Made by a program: the position numbers and the translations under genes
The notes under the pieces: model-generated
What the model was told of the DNA's origin: nothing
Database searches by the model: none
Seen by the model: the letters and a program-made list of their open reading frames with translations, nothing else
Part shown: piece by piece, positions 33,929-39,492 of the stretch
How the letters are laid out: each line of letters opens with the position of its first letter
Numbering within the stretch: position 1 is the first letter of the stretch
Assembly: GCA_964444665.1 (NCBI GenBank)
Contig: CAYUIE010000008.1
Location: forward strand, 17,163-81,162
Reading direction: 5' to 3'
Length of the DNA stretch: 64,000 nucleotides
DNA from: an uncultured Pirellulales bacterium
GTDB lineage: Bacteria; Planctomycetota; Phycisphaerae; Sedimentisphaerales; CAYZTY01

Positions 33929-36900
33929 TTACGCCGTTAATTCTGCAAGGTGTTTTTCAATCGCTTTCAACTGTTCTGTCAACTCAGCCAGTCTATCCCT
34001 TGCCTGAGCAACAACTTCTGGCTTGGCTTTGGTAAGAAAATTTTTATTGGCCAGCCTGGTCTCCACGGCTGTCCTGGCTTTTTCTACTTCTTTCTTTTGC
34101 TTTTCCAACCGCCGTTGCTCAGCAACTGGGTCAATCATATCGTGAACATAAATCTGGGCCGTGTCCGCGATTGTAACAGCCGAGTTTGGGGGTTTTACAA
34201 TAGCTGCCCCCGCTCGAAATTCCTTTACTCCTGCTAACTGAAGTATCAGTTCTTCATTTTCACTTAAAACTTTTACATTTTCCTGACCAAGTTTTGCGGA
34301 TACTAACAACAACTCACTCTGTGGTTTATTATATTCACTTCTGACGTCTCTTATTGCCCGGATTACAGACTGGATAAGTGTAATTTGCTTTTCAGCATCC
34401 TCATCTCTCAGGTTTTCCAGGTCTCCCGGCCATTGGGCGATAACCAATGCATCAGATTTTTCTGCCTTGGCAAGGCCTTGAAGTTTTCTGACGGGAGCGA
34501 TTTCGTTTAGCTTCTGGAAAATTCCTTCGGTGATAAACGGCACAAACGGATGCAACAATCGCAGGCTCTGGTCCAGCACAAACGCCAGGACGTTTTGAGC
34601 AATCTGTCTTTGCTGCTTATCCTGCATTCTCGGCTTAGCCCATTCGAGATACCAGTCACAAAAATCATTCCAGAAAAACCGGTAAATCTGCGCCAAAGGC
34701 TCACTATATTTAAATTCATCCAATGATTCTGTTACCGCGGAAATAGTTTGCGCCAGGCGGGAGAGAATCCACCTGTCGGTAATCGTCATCTTTTCTTTAT
34801 CAAAGCCGGCCGGGTCGACGCCCTCAAGGTTCATCAGGGCAAAACGGGAAGCGTTCCAGAGCTTATTACAGAAGTTTCGGCCGATATCAAACTTGGGCGA
34901 TGTATTTACCGTCCGCCCGTCGGGCAGCTTCATTTTTTTCACCGGCATACGTACGTCCTGCGTCTGCGTAGTCATACTGGCCAGGGTAAAACGCATTGCG
35001 TCGGCGCCGTGGCTGTTGATTGCAACAAGCGGGTCGATGCCGTTGCCTAAGCTTTTAGACATCTTGCGTCCTTCGCCGTCCTGAATCATAGCGTGAATAA
35101 AAACGTCACTGAATGGAATATCGCCGATGCAATACTGGCCCATCATTAGCATACGCGATACCCACAGCGTGATAATCTCACGCGCAGTACAAAGCACATC
35201 ACCCGGATAGAAGGTTTTTAAATCATCTGTATCGTCCGGCCAGCCCATCGTGCTGAATGGCCAAAGCGCCGAACTAAACCAAGTATCCAAAACATCCTCA
35301 TCGCGATTCCAAACCTGTACATGCTTCTCAAACTCGGAGCAAGCCTTTCGTCTTTCTGGCACACCTGTAATACCCTCAACCCGTTTAATACGAGGAAACG
35401 CTTGCCCCGGCTTTATTGCGCCTATACCATCAGGGATGGAAAATAGAAACTTACCAACTAGATTGAGGATATCATCACCATCTGGCGTTTCGAGACATAC
35501 GTATCCAGTACACAATTCGCTTTTGGAAGCACAAACTCTGAAACCAATATCTTCGCGCCCAAAAGCACGCAATAAATCTTTAAGTGCGGTTTCAAATATT
35601 GGAGTTGGATTGGAATATTCGGAAGCACTTAAGTTGGCGCTTTTGAGTTCCATTTTCCAAATTGGTATTCTATGCCCCCACCAGAGCTGTCGGCTGATGG
35701 GCCAGTCGCGCAGGTTTTCCAGCCAGGCCTGGTAGGTTTTGGCATATCGCTCAGGGATAAACCGCAGTCGGCCGTCAAGCAGTGGTTTCAATGCCAGGCC
35801 GGCCAAGGAATTCACAGGTACATCAGTGCCCCTGATAAAATCTTCTTCAAGGCACAAGTCACGAGTCACGAGCGACGGAATCGGTTCCTTGACGGCGATA
35901 TACCACTGGTCGGACAGATACGGCTCGATAGGTACGTGGCTGCGATAACTATGGCCGACCTCGTGGGTGTATTCGCGAACATCATCGAGCAATTTTTCCG
36001 TTCGGAACCACTCGACGACGGCCTCGCGGGCCTCGAACCGGTCCATACCGATAAGATTTTCAACATCGGGATTTTTAATATCTTCCCAGTCCGTCCAGCC
36101 ATATTTGTCGCTGATGGAGCCGTCCGGCGCCATAACGTTTACGATTGGCAGACTATTTCGCTGGCCGATTTCCCAGTCGTCCGGGTCGTGAGCGGGCGTT
36201 ACCTTCAAAAAGCCGGTCGAGAATTTGGCCTTCTCATCTTCACCGTCAGGGTCGGGCAGCACAACATGCTCATCAGCAATTATAGGAATTATGCGTCCGA
36301 CAATCGGCAGCCGTACCATCTTACCCAGCAGATGTTTGGCTCGTGGATCGTTCGGATTCATTGCAACGGCCGTATCACCAAGCATCGTTTCGGGCCGGGT
36401 AGTAGCGACGGTAACGTGTGTTATTGTGGCACGGGCATCTTGCCCGTGTATCTTGCCTATCGCGTCCGGACTTACGCCAACCCACGCCCAATTTTCAAGT
36501 CCCGCCTTGGCAGGATTATTGAGGATATAGTCGACTTGGTGGTTAAAGTCTTCTTCTTCACGGATGATATGGTCGTAATATTCGTCTTGCCAGAACGACT
36601 CGTTGCGTCCCAGCAATTTATTGGCTTTGTTTGCCGTATACGATTTCCAGGAATGTAGTATGGTCGGTAATTCTTCTCCTGGGCGTGGTCTTATTACTGC
36701 GTGTACATGATTCGGCATAATCACCCATACAATCAGATCATATCGTTTGCCGTCAAAGTGCTTCAAGGCATTCTGAACCAACTCGGCAATCCTCGGATCT
36801 CGCAGATAGCATCGCCCATGTCCTGCGTTGAGAAACGACTCAACATGGTCACAATAGAGTCGCGTAAGCTCTCGTTGTTCCTTCGGTGTTGGCTCACGGC

Positions 36901-37765
36901 CTTGTGTCCCAGCCTGCTGAACAAACCTGTCGCGTTGCGAGTGCCAGCGTTCAAGCACCTCGGCAGGCAACGAGTCAGCCAAACGGAATGTTACAGCATA
37001 TGTCGAACCGGCCTGAGTCCAATGAGGCAGATATGCACCTTTTCGCCTACGGACCACCTCATCCACGGCCTGGAAGGCCGTGCCACATGGGACCTCAACC
37101 GGCTCAACTAATGGATAGCGCATATACCAGAAATGCCCTTTTACCGTCTCGTGCTCGACTTCATCGTCGGCCAGCACGGTCTGCGTTGCGGGGTCCCAGT
37201 TGACAAGTCTTTTGCCGCGATAAATCAGGCCATCCTTAAAGAGCTGGAAGAACGCGGCCCGCACTGCCTTCGCGCAAACAGGGTCCATCGTGAAGCGCGT
37301 TCTGGCCCAGTCGCACGAGCAGCCCATCGCCTTTAACTGATTAATAATTGTGGCTTCGTATTCGTCCTTCCAGGCCTGCACATGGGCGATAAACTCATCG
37401 CGCTGGAAATCTGTGCGTTTTTTGCCTTGTTCCGCAAGCAGTCTTTTCTCAACAACGGTCTGAGTGGCGATGCCGGCGTGGTCGGTGCCCGGGAGCCATA
37501 GCGTGTTATATTTTTGCATCCGCCGAAACCGAATCAGGATATCCTGGAGGGTATTATTTAGTGCGTGTCCTAAGTGCAGCGGAGCGGTAACGTTAGGCGG
37601 CGGGATAACAATCGTATAAGGCTTAACCGCCCTGCCGTCGCCCGAAGCGCCTGTACTGAGCGTAGCCGAAGTATTGGCGTGAAAATAACCGCGCGAGAGC
37701 CAGATTTCGCTTACATTTTTTTCCGTCTGCTCAGGCTCGTAAGTTTTTTCAAGTTCTACTGACAA
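33929..37765 (-). CDS. valS: Valine--tRNA ligase carrying two large in-frame insertions (1278 aa)
   Basis: TTG start. PPPNVTAPLHLGHALN (HIGH), ATTRPETMLGDTAV, WPISRQLWWGHRIP, DEDVLDTWFSS, KMSKSLGN, C-terminal coiled coil. Uninterrupted ORF. Confidence 0.93.
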   Translation of the reverse strand: MSVELEKTYEPEQTEKNVSEIWLSRGYFHANTSATLSTGASGDGRAVKPYTIVIPPPNVTAPLHLGHALNNTLQDILIRFRRMQKYNTLWLPGTDHAGIATQTVVEKRLLAEQGKKRTDFQRDEFIAHVQAWKDEYEATIINQLKAMGCSCDWARTRFTMDPVCAKAVRAAFFQLFKDGLIYRGKRLVNWDPATQTVLADDEVEHETVKGHFWYMRYPLVEPVEVPCGTAFQAVDEVVRRRKGAYLPHWTQAGSTYAVTFRLADSLPAEVLERWHSQRDRFVQQAGTQGREPTPKEQRELTRLYCDHVESFLNAGHGRCYLRDPRIAELVQNALKHFDGKRYDLIVWVIMPNHVHAVIRPRPGEELPTILHSWKSYTANKANKLLGRNESFWQDEYYDHIIREEEDFNHQVDYILNNPAKAGLENWAWVGVSPDAIGKIHGQDARATITHVTVATTRPETMLGDTAVAMNPNDPRAKHLLGKMVRLPIVGRIIPIIADEHVVLPDPDGEDEKAKFSTGFLKVTPAHDPDDWEIGQRNSLPIVNVMAPDGSISDKYGWTDWEDIKNPDVENLIGMDRFEAREAVVEWFRTEKLLDDVREYTHEVGHSYRSHVPIEPYLSDQWYIAVKEPIPSLVTRDLCLEEDFIRGTDVPVNSLAGLALKPLLDGRLRFIPERYAKTYQAWLENLRDWPISRQLWWGHRIPIWKMELKSANLSASEYSNPTPIFETALKDLLRAFGREDIGFRVCASKSELCTGYVCLETPDGDDILNLVGKFLFSIPDGIGAIKPGQAFPRIKRVEGITGVPERRKACSEFEKHVQVWNRDEDVLDTWFSSALWPFSTMGWPDDTDDLKTFYPGDVLCTAREIITLWVSRMLMMGQYCIGDIPFSDVFIHAMIQDGEGRKMSKSLGNGIDPLVAINSHGADAMRFTLASMTTQTQDVRMPVKKMKLPDGRTVNTSPKFDIGRNFCNKLWNASRFALMNLEGVDPAGFDKEKMTITDRWILSRLAQTISAVTESLDEFKYSEPLAQIYRFFWNDFCDWYLEWAKPRMQDKQQRQIAQNVLAFVLDQSLRLLHPFVPFITEGIFQKLNEIAPVRKLQGLAKAEKSDALVIAQWPGDLENLRDEDAEKQITLIQSVIRAIRDVRSEYNKPQSELLLVSAKLGQENVKVLSENEELILQLAGVKEFRAGAAIVKPPNSAVTIADTAQIYVHDMIDPVAEQRRLEKQKKEVEKARTAVETRLANKNFLTKAKPEVVAQARDRLAELTEQLKAIEKHLAELTA
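36422..37102 (-). mobile_element. REP-flanked RayT/IS200-like (COG1943, Y1 HUH) transposase module embedded in frame in valS
   Basis: valS aa ~222-448: RRRKGAYLPHW, YAVTFRLADSLP, VIMPNHVHAVI (HUH), WQDEYYDHIIR, VDYILNNPAKAGL (catalytic Tyr helix). Bounded by hairpins at 37064-37082 and 36430-36448. Confidence 0.75.
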
Positions 37766-37989: not shown

Positions 37990-39492
37990 TTAATCAAGGT
38001 TCATAGTCATCAGGAATTCTGCGTTAGACCGCACCTTTGAGAGTCGGCTCTTGAGCAGCTCAATGGCCTCAATCGAATTCATATCACTGAGCACACGCCT
38101 TAGCCGATATACCAGCTCAAGCTCTTTGGGCTCCAGCAGCAGCTCTTCCCTTCTCGTGCCGCTCCGGCTTATATCGATAGCCGGCCAGATTCTTCTATCC
38201 ACAAGGCGGCGGTCGAGGTGCAGTTCCATATTACCCGTTGCCTTGAATTCTTCGAAAATCACCTCGTCCATTTTTGAGCCGGTATCGATAAGGCAGGTTG
38301 CGAATATAGTCAGCGAGCCGCCGTCTTCCACGTTTCTGGCGGCGCCGAAGAATTTTTTAGGCATCTGCATCGCGCCGGAGTCTACGCCGCCCGTCAGAAT
38401 TTTACCCGAGTGCGGCGTCTCGGTGTTGTAAGCCCGTGCCAGACGCGTCAGAGAATCGAGAAGAATTACGACATCCTGCTCGTATTCCACAAGACGCTTG
38501 GCCTTTTCGATTACCACTTCCGATACCTGGCAGTGCCGTGCGGCCGGCTCGTCGAAGGTGCTGCTTATGACTTCCACGTCCTCGGCCGTTTTTCTTTCCA
38601 TTTCGGTAACTTCTTCCGGCCGTTCGTCTATCAACAGCACAATCAACTTGACTTCAGGGTAATTAGTGCTGATGGCATTAGCAATTTTTTGCAGCAATAC
38701 GGTCTTGCCTGTCCGCGGCGGAGCGACTATCAGGCCACGTTGGCCCTTGCCGATGGGTGTTACCATATCAATGATTCTCATGCCGAGTTCCTCGGAGGTC
38801 GTTTCAAGGATAAATCTATTCTCAGGATGCAGCGGGGTTAGGTCGCTAAAGACTACCTTTTCAGCGAGCCTATCGGGGTCTTCGAAATTTATCGCCTCAA
38901 CGCGGAGCAGTGCAAAATACTTCTCCAGGTCCTTGGGCGGGCGAATCTGGCCTGAGACGATGTTGCCGCTGCGCAGACCGAAACGTCTGATTTGCGAGGG
39001 CGAGACGTAAATGTCGTCAGGCGAAGACAGATAGTTGTAACGCGGATTGCGGAGAAACCCGAAACCGTCCGGCAGGACTTCCAGAACACCCTCTCCGTAC
39101 ATCAACCCATTTTGCCTGATACGTTCTTTAAGTATTTTGAAAATCAGGTCCTGCTTTTTAAGGCCGGTATATTCCTTGAGCCCTTCATTCCTGGCGATGT
39201 TGTGCAGCTCGGCCACAGTCAGGTTTTGAAGGTCGGTTATGTGCAGATTACCCTTTTTAATTCGCTCGTATTTGGCATGTATCGATTCTTCCTCACTGAG
39301 CTTTTCTTTTTGCTTTGCCTGCTCAGGAGTCTGCTCAACCTGCTCGACCACCGTGGTTGTCGTGTCGGGCTCTTCTTGATTCGTCTGCGTTTTCTCGACG
39401 GCATTTTTCTCTTCGGAGGTCTTGGCCCTTCTTGAATTTTTTCTCCTTTTCGTCGTCCTTGTTTCGCCGTTCTTCTCATCGTCTTTAGCCAT
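37990..39492 (-). CDS. rho: Transcription termination factor Rho with ~80-aa K/E/T-rich N-terminal extension
   Basis: Rho_[28 protein letters not shown]-binding GFGFLR, Walker [34 protein letters not shown]. Confidence 0.93.

What the first reader, a model, noticed from the sequence alone, without database searches (positions are those of the whole stretch)
36422..37102. Essential valS carries an in-frame, motif-intact RayT/IS200-like HUH tyrosine-transposase domain in its editing-domain region
**Seen in sequence:** the 1278-aa ORF is colinear with class I ValRS (HLGH, ATTRPET, WWGHRIP, DEDVLDTWFSS, KMSKS). Between WYMRYPL and VATTRPETMLGD there are about 227 extra codons (aa ~222-448) with no stop or frameshift. 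As I recall, E. coli ValRS has only a short linker here.

**Motifs:** the extra codons read RRRKGAYLPHW...YAVTFRLADSLP...VIMPNHVHAVI...WQDEYYDHIIR...VDYILNNPAKAGL. This is the full motif series of the COG1943/Y1_Tnp (REP-associated tyrosine transposase) family. It includes the HUH triad (H-V-H) and the catalytic Tyr helix.

**Inference:** a complete mobile-element nuclease appears to be translated as part of an essential aminoacyl-tRNA synthetase. It could be a tolerated insertion, a domesticated ssDNA/RNA-binding module, or an element using an essential gene as a safe harbour. I know of no described aaRS-RayT fusion.
Basis: partly seen in the sequence, partly recalled or inferred. Interest (0 to 1): 0.9.

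Follow-up and report, generated by a model that had tools for sequence, protein, structure and literature searches.

The report
REP-flanked transposase unit translated inside valS
A complete tyrosine-transposase (RAYT) unit, including its two hairpin ends, sits in frame inside the essential valyl-tRNA synthetase gene; relatives show it comes and goes like a mobile element, and the same kind of unit lives inside many other housekeeping proteins, a lifestyle I found no description of.

Summary
ORF 33929-37765 (-) is a 1278-aa ValRS. Its extra ~221 codons pass the Pfam Y1_Tnp and NCBIfam REP_Tyr_transpos cutoffs, fold confidently, and match E. coli TnpA-REP (4ER8) best.

**New anatomy.** The insert is a whole REP-RAYT-REP unit. 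Two perfect 8-bp hairpins with GTGG feet, in inverted orientation, sit at its two junctions and are translated (CGTAFQAV / HGQDARAT). They are the only two such palindromes in the 64 kb.

**Not a fixed domain.**
- Ranked by host similarity, only about 14 of the 120 nearest ValRS carry the insert.
- The window's closest relative (88% identity, same synteny) has an empty site.
- Presence/absence needs at least 27 changes on a 225-tip host tree.
- Hosts 93-96% identical carry inserts only 50-65% identical.
- Three empty alleles look like deletion scars, and one orthologue carries the unit in another valS loop.

**Catalytic residues.** HUH and Tyr are invariant in 118/118 copies.

**Other hosts.** The same RAYT subfamily, with matched inverted REPs, is embedded in frame in AlaRS, DnaE, UvrA, DinG-like helicases, CarB, IspG, MetH, MenF-type enzymes, FabZ and R-M enzymes.

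**Best reading.** It is a mobile or semi-mobile element riding inside essential genes, not a ValRS-specific module. I found no published description.

The parts
33929..37765 (-). valS ORF, 1278 aa, TTG start, uninterrupted, containing the inserted unit
   Evidence: Synteny coaE-rho-valS-BFN-lspA is the same as in the empty-site relative L002.
37088..37765 (-). ValRS N-terminal part (aa 1-226): Rossmann fold with the HLGH motif, up to the beta-strand ...WYMRYPLVEPVEVP
36425..37087 (-). The whole inserted REP-RAYT-REP unit (663 nt, 221 codons). It replaces the 4-residue beta-turn of the empty allele.
   Evidence: Filled versus empty comparison; REP termini.
37064..37087 (-). Left REP. On the coding strand it reads TGTGG foot + CACGGCCT-TCC-AGGCCGTG, a perfect 8-bp stem, translated as CGTAFQAV.
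36470..37060 (-). RAYT (TnpA-REP-like Y1 HUH) domain core, aa 236-432
   Evidence: PF01797 and NF047646 above their cutoffs. AF2 mean pLDDT 88.6. Foldseek top hit 4ER8, E 1.3e-8. hmmsearch hit to 4ER8, E 6e-9.
36701..36709 (-). HUH motif codons H353-V354-H355
   Evidence: Both histidines are invariant in 118/118 ValRS-embedded copies and invariant in 63 copies embedded in other hosts.
36527..36529 (-). Catalytic tyrosine Y413, in the motif YILNNP
   Evidence: Invariant in 118/118 copies. It aligns with the Tyr helix of 4ER8.
36425..36448 (-). Right REP, the inverted copy of the left one. On the coding strand it reads CACGGGCA-AGA-TGCCCGTG + CCACA foot, translated as HGQDARAT.
33929..36424 (-). 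ValRS remainder (aa 448-1278): ITHVTVATTRPET editing motif, CP1, WWGHRIP, KMSKS, anticodon-binding domain and C-terminal coiled coil

Best explanation
The extra codons are a complete REP-RAYT-REP unit. It consists of a REP-associated tyrosine (HUH-Y1) transposase gene plus its own two inverted REP hairpin termini. The unit lies in frame in the tip of a surface beta-hairpin of ValRS, just before the Thr-rich ATTRPET editing peptide.

How it most likely works:
- The unit has no start, stop or promoter of its own and is translated as part of ValRS.
- The translated REPs act as flexible linkers, and the RAYT core folds as an independent lobe, so ValRS keeps working.
- Sitting inside an essential ORF gives the element expression. 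It also protects it from frameshift or nonsense decay, because such mutations would kill the host.
- The element is not fixed. Across Sedimentisphaerales-type Phycisphaerae it is gained, lost (leaving scars), exchanged between close hosts and occasionally relocated within valS.
- The RAYT active site is kept by selection on the element's own function, which is cutting and joining its cognate REP ssDNA hairpins.
- The ValRS case is one instance of a widespread lifestyle of this RAYT subfamily in large housekeeping proteins.

Shown: the continuous ORF, family and fold membership, the REP termini, the patchy and incongruent distribution, the scars, the second site, and the multi-host embedding.

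Inferred: translation into a functional ValRS, catalytic activity of the domain, the route of movement (RAYT-catalysed versus homologous recombination), and the safe-harbour logic.
For: Identity
- HMM hits are above the curated cutoffs.
- The confident stand-alone fold (pLDDT 88.6, pTM 0.82) has low-confidence termini.
- The best structural and sequence match is TnpA-REP 4ER8, with HUH and Tyr aligned.

REP termini
- The pattern CACGGSC-N5-GSCCGTG occurs twice in the 64 kb, exactly at the two junctions, with 0 expected by chance.
- In 10 valS loci the hairpins lie forward at -366 to -405 nt and reversed at +246 to +400 nt from the HUH codons.
- They carry a GT(G/A)GC foot, and their stems differ by compensatory changes: 6 of 8 pairs, with 0 of 500 shuffles reaching the observed score.

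Mobility
- With a host-only query, about 14 of the 120 nearest ValRS are filled.
- The nearest relative, P0225, is empty and has identical synteny.
- Presence/absence needs at least 27 changes on 225 tips; the permuted mean is 75.
- Insert type needs at least 36 changes against a minimum of 4. Of 55 host pairs at 93% identity or more, 23 have inserts only 50-65% identical.
- Of 107 empty alleles, 104 have the standard loop. The 3 odd ones are the nearest relatives of filled alleles. Two retain GTGTC-GCGGGC, a REP foot plus left arm, and one lacks the beta-turn.
- P0239 carries the unit in another loop of valS. Its site 1 is clean, and its insert is 85% identical to the site-1 insert of a 95%-identical host.
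- REP-only in-frame insertions occur in L007 valS, including one at site 2.

Selection
- H353, H355, N352 and Y413 are invariant in 118/118 copies.

Generality
- 45 of 85 loci have the RAYT inside a long ORF with at least 100 aa on both sides.
- 63 of the best 150 cluster representatives are 400 aa or longer with the RAYT internal.
- Hosts cover 77 Pfam families, including class I aaRS, AlaRS, DnaE, UvrA, DinG-like helicases, CarB, IspG, MetH, chorismate-binding enzymes and R-M enzymes.
- 36 of 45 embedded copies have matched inverted hairpins on both sides. Hairpin density is 5.5 per kb in the flanks against 0.35 per kb in the background.
Against: - There is no expression, proteomic or biochemical evidence. 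Translation as one polypeptide and RAYT activity are inferred.
- No further copy of this REP occurs in the other ~63 kb of the window, so an active REP population in this genome is not shown.
- Filled alleles lack the 4-residue turn of the empty alleles. A simple IS200-type peel-and-paste insertion does not explain the junction, and I found no target consensus.
- Allele exchange by homologous recombination could produce the patchiness and incongruence without any transposition.
- The trees are NJ trees built from identity distances, mostly on MAG-derived proteins.
- The covariation test used units that I had selected as hairpins.
- The full-length structure model is poor (pLDDT 57.6), so the position of the lobe relative to the editing site and the tRNA is unknown.
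Confidence: 0.7

Rival explanations
1. The RAYT domain is an ancient, vertically inherited, domesticated module with a ValRS-specific role. Examples would be an extra tRNA or nucleic-acid binding lobe, or a regulator of editing.
For: It is long-lived in several sublineages, and the insert-containing query returned 118 filled orthologues. The catalytic and many other residues are strongly conserved. Host and insert distances correlate weakly but significantly (Mantel r = 0.32). The insertion lies a few residues from the Thr-rich editing motif.
Against: The 118/120 figure was a ranking artefact. With a host-only query about 88% of the nearest ValRS are empty, including the closest relative. At least 27 presence/absence changes are needed, and filled/empty pairs reach 94-96% host identity. 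Near-identical hosts carry different insert types. The same unit sits in 77 host Pfam families with no common function. Conservation of HUH and Tyr is not something a tRNA-binding role would require.
Confidence: 0.1
2. This particular copy is a dead fossil. It was a once-mobile insertion that is now merely tolerated, with an inactive RAYT and no movement in this genome.
For: There are no other REP copies in 63 kb of the window. GC content across the insert is similar to the rest of the gene, so it is not a recent foreign arrival. The insert is at most ~71% identical to any other copy found. The literature view is that REPtrons are immobile.
Against: All catalytic motifs are intact and both terminal hairpins are perfect 8-bp stems. 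A neutrally decaying domain would accumulate missense changes in HUH and Tyr, because these are harmless to ValRS, yet they are invariant in 118/118 copies. The sister lineage differs by presence/absence.
Confidence: 0.15
3. The insert is removed before the mature enzyme forms, either by protein splicing (intein-like) or by RNA splicing (IStron or group I intron-like), so that ValRS is unaltered.
For: In-frame elements in conserved sites of essential genes are classically inteins. IS200/IS605 elements are known to team up with group I introns, as IStrons (PMC4227781).
Against: The whole insert is accounted for by an HUH fold plus REPs, with no HINT fold. Junction residues vary among orthologues (C/R/V on the N side, T-I on the C side), and there is no conserved Cys/Ser nucleophile or His-Asn. 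Rfam finds no intron or ribozyme in valS at E <= 1. At 663 nt there is no room for a group I intron plus the RAYT ORF.
Confidence: 0.03
4. The fusion is an assembly chimera or a sequencing artefact.
For: Most related sequences come from metagenome assemblies. Some long-read contigs show frameshifted valS (L005).
Against: The identical protein appears in two independent sources. More than 118 independent assemblies from NCBI, JGI and ENA have the unit at the same codon position. The ORF is continuous, with conserved synteny on both sides.
Confidence: 0.01

Closest known systems
E. coli TnpA-REP / RAYT and its REPtron (PDB 4ER8; Nunvar 2010, Ton-Hoang 2012, Bertels & Rainey; Quentin et al. 2018, PMC6006769, nearest to their subclass 2.7 by motifs)
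   Same: It has the HUH-Y1 fold and the HUH and Y...NP motifs. It passes the curated REP_Tyr_transpos HMM. The gene is bracketed by REP hairpins in inverted orientation with a GT[AG]G-type 5' foot, and the REP stems co-vary with the RAYT type.
   Different: It is not a free-standing gene: the RAYT and its REPs are translated inside another protein. The unit appears at different sites and in different genes and is gained and lost between close relatives, whereas REPtrons are described as immobile, vertically inherited single-copy genes. It has subfamily-specific N-terminal (RxGAYLPHW) and C-terminal (NWxWVG) motifs and a ~90-aa helical insertion between beta1 and HUH. No large dispersed REP population was seen here.
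IS200/IS605 insertion sequences (IS608, ISDra2 TnpA)
   Same: The catalytic domain is of the same Y1 HUH type, with subterminal hairpins at both ends of the unit. The structures are matched at E 1e-5 to 1e-3.
   Different: The Tyr motif is the RAYT type (Y...N, not Y...Q). The transpos_IS200 HMM scores 23 bits against a cutoff of 55. There is no tnpB, no multicopy distribution, and the junctions do not look like a simple peel-and-paste insertion next to a conserved tetranucleotide.
Inteins and homing-endonuclease-type parasites of essential genes
   Same: It is an in-frame resident of conserved, essential, often nucleic-acid-handling proteins (DnaE, helicases, aaRS). It shows sporadic presence/absence among close relatives at the same site, and the element phylogeny is incongruent with the host.
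   Different: It has no HINT fold and no splicing motifs, and the insert presumably stays in the mature protein. The encoded enzyme is a ssDNA HUH transposase, not a LAGLIDADG or HNH endonuclease.
Rickettsia palindromic elements (RPEs) and other intragenic MITEs (review PMC10969869)
   Same: These are palindromic repeat DNA inserted in frame and translated within unrelated housekeeping proteins. The REP-only in-frame insertions seen in L007 valS are directly comparable.
   Different: RPEs are short and non-autonomous, with no known cognate transposase. Here the autonomous unit, with the transposase itself, is embedded and translated.
IStrons (group I intron + IS200/IS605; PMC4227781)
   Same: A Y1-transposase element that neutralises the cost of inserting into genes.
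   Different: IStrons achieve neutrality by RNA self-splicing. No ribozyme is detectable here; neutrality would instead come from in-frame translation as a separate lobe.

Membership tests
RAYT / TnpA-REP (REP-associated tyrosine transposase) | Curated HMM membership (NCBIfam NF047646; Pfam PF01797) | tested here: met
   NF047646 scores 89.7 bits against a cutoff of 80. PF01797 scores 34.8 bits against a gathering score of 23.
RAYT / TnpA-REP (REP-associated tyrosine transposase) | HUH metal-binding motif and a single catalytic Tyr in a C-terminal helix with the RAYT-type Y...N(P) signature | tested here: met
   H353-V-H355 and Y413...N417-P418 are present. They align to 4ER8 'HMH' and 'YIYINP'.
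RAYT / TnpA-REP (REP-associated tyrosine transposase) | TnpA-REP fold | tested here: met
   The AF2 model has pLDDT 88.6. The Foldseek top hit is 4ER8_A, E 1.3e-8, probability 1.00.
RAYT / TnpA-REP (REP-associated tyrosine transposase) | Gene flanked by REP hairpins in inverted orientation with a GT[AG]G 5' foot (REPtron arrangement) | tested here: met
   The left REP is 37064-37087 and the right REP is 36425-36448. These are the only two matches in the 64 kb. The foot GT(G/A)GC is seen in 27 aligned units.
RAYT / TnpA-REP (REP-associated tyrosine transposase) | Cognate REP/REPIN population dispersed in the same genome | tested here: inconclusive
   There are none in the other ~63 kb of the window. 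Dispersed copies occur in 10/45 related embedded loci. The whole genome is not available.
RAYT / TnpA-REP (REP-associated tyrosine transposase) | Free-standing, single-copy gene with its own start and stop | tested here: not met
   It is embedded in frame in valS with no start or stop of its own.
RAYT / TnpA-REP (REP-associated tyrosine transposase) | Cleaves and rejoins REP ssDNA | not testable with these tools
   This needs biochemistry.
IS200/IS605 TnpA insertion sequence | Curated IS200 transposase HMM; Y...Q motif; multicopy IS | tested here: not met
   NF033573 scores 23 bits against a cutoff of 55. Asn, not Gln, follows the Tyr. There is no second copy in the window.
Valine--tRNA ligase (class Ia aaRS) | Equivalog HMM, HIGH and KMSKS motifs, Thr-rich editing peptide, anticodon-binding and C-terminal coiled-coil domains, orthologous locus | tested here: met
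   NF004349 scores 1036.8 bits against a cutoff of 704. The Pfam domains are and the motifs.
Intein | HINT fold; conserved N-terminal Cys/Ser and C-terminal His-Asn plus Cys/Ser/Thr at the junctions | tested here: not met
   The fold is HUH. The junction residues are variable among orthologues.
IStron / group I intron-borne element | Self-splicing ribozyme within the insert | tested here: not met
   There is no Rfam match with E <= 1 other than two noise hits elsewhere in valS.

The most novel reading that the evidence does not exclude
This RAYT subfamily is a previously unrecognised class of mobile element. It propagates as an in-frame, translated domain insertion: transposase plus REP ends, read through as linkers, inside large essential proteins such as aaRS, DnaE, UvrA, CarB, IspG and MetH. 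It would be an 'intein-like lifestyle without splicing'. It is still active in nature, showing gain, scarred loss, type replacement and intragenic relocation, and its host-fused HUH enzyme mobilises cognate REPs, some of which also land in frame in genes. It would also be a natural mechanism of domain insertion and shuffling in bacterial proteins.
Probability: 0.5. Interest if true: 0.9.

Novelty: new variant of a known kind. Interest (0 to 1): 0.85.

Why it matters
**What is at stake for RAYT biology.** RAYTs are held to be immobile, single-copy, domesticated transposases whose genes stand alone. Here a catalytically intact RAYT with its REP termini is part of the reading frame of an essential enzyme. 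The same arrangement recurs in dozens of unrelated housekeeping proteins across Planctomycetota, Verrucomicrobiota, Acidobacteriota and other phyla.

**If confirmed, it would:**
- add a third way, besides inteins and self-splicing introns or IStrons, for selfish DNA to live inside essential genes;
- show that REPtron-like units can move as units;
- give a natural example of HUH-tag fusion proteins and of transposon-mediated domain insertion;
- explain a class of 'unexpectedly long proteins' that earlier surveys discarded as fusions or annotation errors (PMC6006769).

**Practical consequences.** It flags a systematic annotation blind spot: these proteins are named only after the host enzyme, or only 'transposase'. 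It also offers testable material in a cultured organism, since Anaerobaca lacustris ValRS carries the insert.

Tried and rejected
1. **'Lineage-wide fixed domain.'** I first inferred this (118 of 120 top hits filled). I rejected it after recognising the ranking bias of an insert-containing query and repeating the search with the insert deleted.
2. **Insert-only word-index search.** It returned only short proteins, not even the self-hit or any ValRS fusion. This is a quirk of candidate selection, so its 'all free-standing' picture was misleading. Several of those 'free' proteins are fragments of interrupted host genes (P0001 = frameshifted valS; P0018 = Sua5; P0109 = FabZ).
3. **Exact-sequence lookups** of the window protein and of P0121 found no contig. 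The nearest named relatives are Sedimentisphaerales and Phycisphaerae MAGs and Anaerobaca lacustris.
4. **Full-length AF2 (aa 1-1200)** gave pLDDT 57.6 and pTM 0.41. I did not use it for geometry.
5. **Recombination-tract test, window versus empty sister.** Third-position identity is flat (0.66-0.74) across site 1, so the test is uninformative.
6. **Intron or ribozyme.** Nothing was found in Rfam.
7. **Intein.** Neither the motifs nor the fold fit.
8. **Target-site consensus or duplication.** None was evident. Filled alleles lack the 4-aa turn, and the closest filled/empty pair diverges inside the REP. The insertion chemistry remains unresolved.
9. **Covariation statistics** are partly circular, because the units were chosen as hairpins. 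I rely more on positional and orientational conservation and on within-locus left/right matching.

Full report
**1.

The minus-strand ORF 33929-37765 encodes 1278 aa without interruption. It is a bona fide valine--tRNA ligase. NF004349 scores 1036.8 bits against a cutoff of 704, and Pfam finds tRNA-synt_1, Anticodon_1 and Val_tRNA-synt_C. It lies in the conserved neighbourhood coaE-rho-valS-BFN-lspA.

They fail the IS200 transposase model (23 bits; cutoff 55).

With an alignment of relatives the insert alone folds confidently (mean pLDDT 88.6, pTM 0.82). Its best solved-structure match, by sequence profile (E 6e-9) and by fold (Foldseek E 1.3e-8, probability 1.0), is 4ER8, the E. coli TnpA-REP bound to a REP hairpin. 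The IS200, IS608 and ISDra2 transposases follow. The HUH motif and the Tyr helix are aligned.

**2. Anatomy: the insert is a whole REP-RAYT-REP unit, and its ends are translated**

On the coding strand the left junction reads cca TGT GGC ACG GCC TTC CAG GCC GTG (P-CGTAFQAV). The right junction reads CAC GGG CAA GAT GCC CGT GCC ACA (HGQDARAT). Each contains a perfect 8-bp stem with a 3-nt loop: CACGGCCT-TCC-AGGCCGTG and CACGGGCA-AGA-TGCCCGTG. The reverse complement of the right one is TGTGGCACGGGCATCTTGCCCGTG. The two ends are therefore the same REP in inverted orientation, each with a TGTGG foot.

The degenerate pattern CACGGSC-N5-GSCCGTG, allowing 1 mismatch, matches exactly twice in the 64 kb, at these two junctions, with 0 expected by chance. 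This is the REPtron layout described for RAYTs, including the GT[AG]G-type foot (PMC6006769).

The same arrangement holds in all 10 valS loci for which I obtained DNA. Forward REPs (loop TCC/TCT) lie 366-405 nt before the HUH codons. Inverted REPs (loop GGA/AGA) lie 246-400 nt after them. The stems differ between genomes by compensatory changes, for example ACGGGCT/AGCCCGT, GCGGGCG/CGCCCGC, GAAGGCG/CGCCTTC and GAGAGCG/CGCTCTC. On 27 aligned units, 6 of 8 stem pairs show double changes and 0 of 500 shuffles reach the observed covariation score. That test is partly circular, because I picked the units as hairpins.

REP copy number at the junctions varies from 1 to 4 or more in-frame tandem units among orthologues, for example HGQDARATD x4 and GEGVPPLRP x3.

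**3. Where it sits in ValRS**

Empty alleles read VEPVEI-(E/D)G(K/E)(R/Q)-IE(Y/H)VTVATTRPET. Filled alleles read VEPVE(I/V)-P[REP...RAYT...REP]-I(E/T)(Y/H)VTVATTRPET. The unit therefore replaces the 4-residue turn of a beta-hairpin that immediately precedes the Thr-rich editing peptide.

The full-length model was poor (pLDDT 57.6) and I do not use it for geometry. It is at least consistent with strands on both sides (205-224 and 447-455), low-confidence linkers at the translated REPs (227-249 and 435-445), and a well-predicted RAYT core (pLDDT 72-86).

**4. It is not a fixed lineage-wide domain; it comes and goes**

My first search, with the insert in the query, returned 118 filled ValRS among the top 120. 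That ranking is biased toward insert-bearing sequences. Repeating the search with the insert deleted gave about 14 filled and 106 empty alleles (955-1072 aa) among the 120 nearest relatives.

- **Closest relative.** By host columns the window's closest relative is P0225, at 88% identity against 80% or less for every insert-bearing relative. It has an empty site and identical synteny (Rho 91.6%, BFN 91.6% identical).
- **Presence/absence.** On an NJ tree of 225 ValRS built from 722 host-only columns, presence/absence needs at least 27 changes (permuted mean 75). Filled/empty pairs reach 94-96% host identity.
- **Insert types.** Inserts fall into five clusters. On the host tree the insert type changes at least 36 times, against a minimum of 4. 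Among 55 host pairs at 93% identity or more, 23 carry inserts only 50-65% identical while 12 carry inserts at least 95% identical.
- **Co-divergence.** Host and insert distances correlate only weakly (Mantel r = 0.32, with a large intercept).
- **Deletion scars.** Of 107 empty alleles, 104 have the standard loop length. The 3 exceptions are the nearest relatives of filled alleles. P0406 lacks the turn altogether. P0438 and P0472 read VEC-VAG-QQFE. At the DNA level P0438 retains GTGTC-GCGGGC, exactly a REP foot plus left stem arm, and diverges from its filled sister P0175 inside the REP (flanks 90-92% identical; +765 nt). These look like deletion scars.
- **Second site.** One orthologue, P0239, has a clean site 1 and carries REP-RAYT-REP-REP in a different surface loop, between WYIAVKKPI and GTDVPINSLAG. 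Its host is 95% identical to site-1-filled hosts, and its RAYT is 85% identical to the site-1 RAYT of one of them.
- **REP-only insertions.** In L007, REP-only units sit in frame in valS, including a REP doublet in that same second loop.

**5. Selection on the transposase itself**

Despite this turnover, N352, H353, H355 and Y413 are invariant in 118/118 ValRS-embedded copies, along with many other family residues. Missense changes at these positions would not harm ValRS. Their conservation therefore points to selection on RAYT function.

**6. The ValRS case is one of many**

Of the loci held, 45 have the RAYT inside a stop-to-stop frame with at least 100 aa of other sequence on both sides.

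Pfam identifies the hosts as follows:
- ValRS;
- IspG/GcpE (several Verrucomicrobiota);
- CarB;
- DnaE, at three different positions;
- MetH;
- a DinG-like helicase;
- GH38/57;
- DUF1156;
- MmeI-type R-M enzymes;
- DUF5107-TPR;
- a helicase with NOV_C;
- FabZ;
- Sua5.

An exhaustive HMMER search of 1.84 billion cluster representatives gave 13,262 hits at E <= 1e-3. Of the best 150, 63 are 400 aa or longer with the RAYT internal. Those 63 match 77 Pfam families. The most frequent are class I aaRS (7), AlaRS (4-5), Type ISP/Eco57I/MmeI enzymes (5-6), DinG-type helicases (5) and chorismate-binding enzymes (3). Individual cases include UvrA, a TPP enzyme and DNA methylases.

Across these 63 embedded copies the HUH histidines are invariant and the catalytic Tyr is at least 90% conserved. 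In 36 of 45 embedded loci, and in 19 of 28 free-standing ones, perfect GC-rich hairpins flank the RAYT on both sides. The right one is the reverse complement of the left, and the stems differ between loci. Hairpin density is 5.5 per kb in the flanks against 0.35 per kb in the background. Copies of an element's own REP more than 1.5 kb away occur in 10 of 45 embedded loci.

**7. Mechanism**

The best-supported reading (confidence about 0.7) is as follows. A REP-RAYT-REP unit resides in frame in a tolerant surface loop. It is translated with the host, the REP-encoded peptides serve as linkers, and the RAYT forms an autonomous lobe.

The arrangement gives the element expression without signals of its own. 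It also shields it from inactivation by frameshift or nonsense mutations, which would be lethal in an essential ORF. Only clean in-frame deletions can remove it, and such scars are seen.

Movement could be RAYT-catalysed ssDNA cut-and-join at the REP feet. It could equally be exchange of filled and empty alleles by homologous recombination across the extremely conserved ValRS flanks. I cannot separate the two. The junctions do not look like simple IS200-type insertions, because the turn is missing from filled alleles, and no recombination tract is detectable between the window and its empty sister.

Rivals:
- A ValRS-specific domesticated module, about 0.1.
- This copy being a dead fossil, about 0.15.
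- Splicing at the protein or RNA level, about 0.03. There is no HINT fold, the junction residues vary, and Rfam finds nothing.
- An artefact, about 0.01.

**8. Known versus new**

RAYTs, REPs and REPtrons are well described. By its motifs (NHVH, WQ, YDH, YILNNP) and its long beta1-HUH insertion, this protein is nearest to subclass 2.7 of Quentin et al..

What I could not find in the literature is any account of RAYTs translated inside host proteins. [quoted passage not shown] The RAYT domestication paper does not mention fusions (PMC5581495).

The closest conceptual analogues are:
- inteins (same niche, different chemistry);
- IStrons (PMC4227781);
- Rickettsia palindromic elements translated inside genes (PMC10969869).

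I rate it a new variant of a known kind, of high interest.

**9. Caveats**

- All evidence is comparative. Most relatives are MAG-derived, and the trees are NJ trees on identity distances.
- The source genome is not identified, and only 64 kb of it was examined.
- Translation, ValRS function with the insert, and RAYT activity are inferred rather than shown.

Noticed in passing
window 35276-35653 (-), ValRS aa 705-830: There is a second, ~100-aa lineage-specific region between WWGHRIP and DEDVLDTWFSS. It is hypervariable: only 24-36% aa identity to the empty-site sister, where the flanks exceed 90%, and there is no consensus across 72 orthologues. Yet it is predicted as a folded alpha/beta module (pLDDT 70-88). 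It has no Pfam hit and no REP-like peptide. Its origin is unexplained.
   Followed up: partly
window 35828-35878 (-), ValRS aa ~630-646 ('site 2' loop PSLVTRDLCLEEDFIR): This loop is hypervariable between the window and its sister. It is where other lineages carry a whole REP-RAYT-REP-REP unit (L001/P0239) or a REP doublet (L007). In the window it is empty and has no REP remnant.
   Followed up: yes
L007:9215-13291 (valS of a Phycisphaerales MAG): REP-only units are translated in frame inside valS. A tandem pair, NHGQDGRDT-NHGQDARAT, lies in an editing-domain loop, and a REP doublet, GSTGFQPQ...DTGKMPVPR, lies at site 2. Further REP doublets lie upstream of the gene (320/357 and 9230/9267). 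This is an RPE-like phenomenon in Planctomycetota.
   Followed up: partly
L004:1753-3442 (Sua5/TsaC locus); L003:244-1389 (FabZ); L066, L027, L083 (DnaE): The same RAYT lies between the YrdC and Sua5_C domains of a t6A enzyme, where it is called as two genes. It also lies inside FabZ, and at three different positions of Pol III alpha in three lineages. I did not look for empty-site orthologues of these hosts.
   Followed up: partly
L005:1754-5325: A valS carrying the insert is split into four gene calls on a long-read metagenome contig, through frameshifts or sequencing errors. This makes the RAYT look like a free-standing 210-aa gene (P0001). It is a warning that some 'free' RAYTs in databases are fragments of interrupted host genes.
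   Followed up: yes
JGI names on P0022, P0055, P0056, P0114: Short RAYT proteins are annotated 'menaquinone-specific isochorismate synthase'. This is probably annotation transfer from MenF-type proteins that carry an embedded RAYT. Three chorismate-binding hosts were found among the long representatives.
   Followed up: partly
window 37990-39492 (-), rho: Rho is 500 aa, with a ~75-residue Lys/Glu/Thr-rich low-complexity N-terminal extension ahead of Rho_N. The same length is seen in the sister genome.
   Followed up: no
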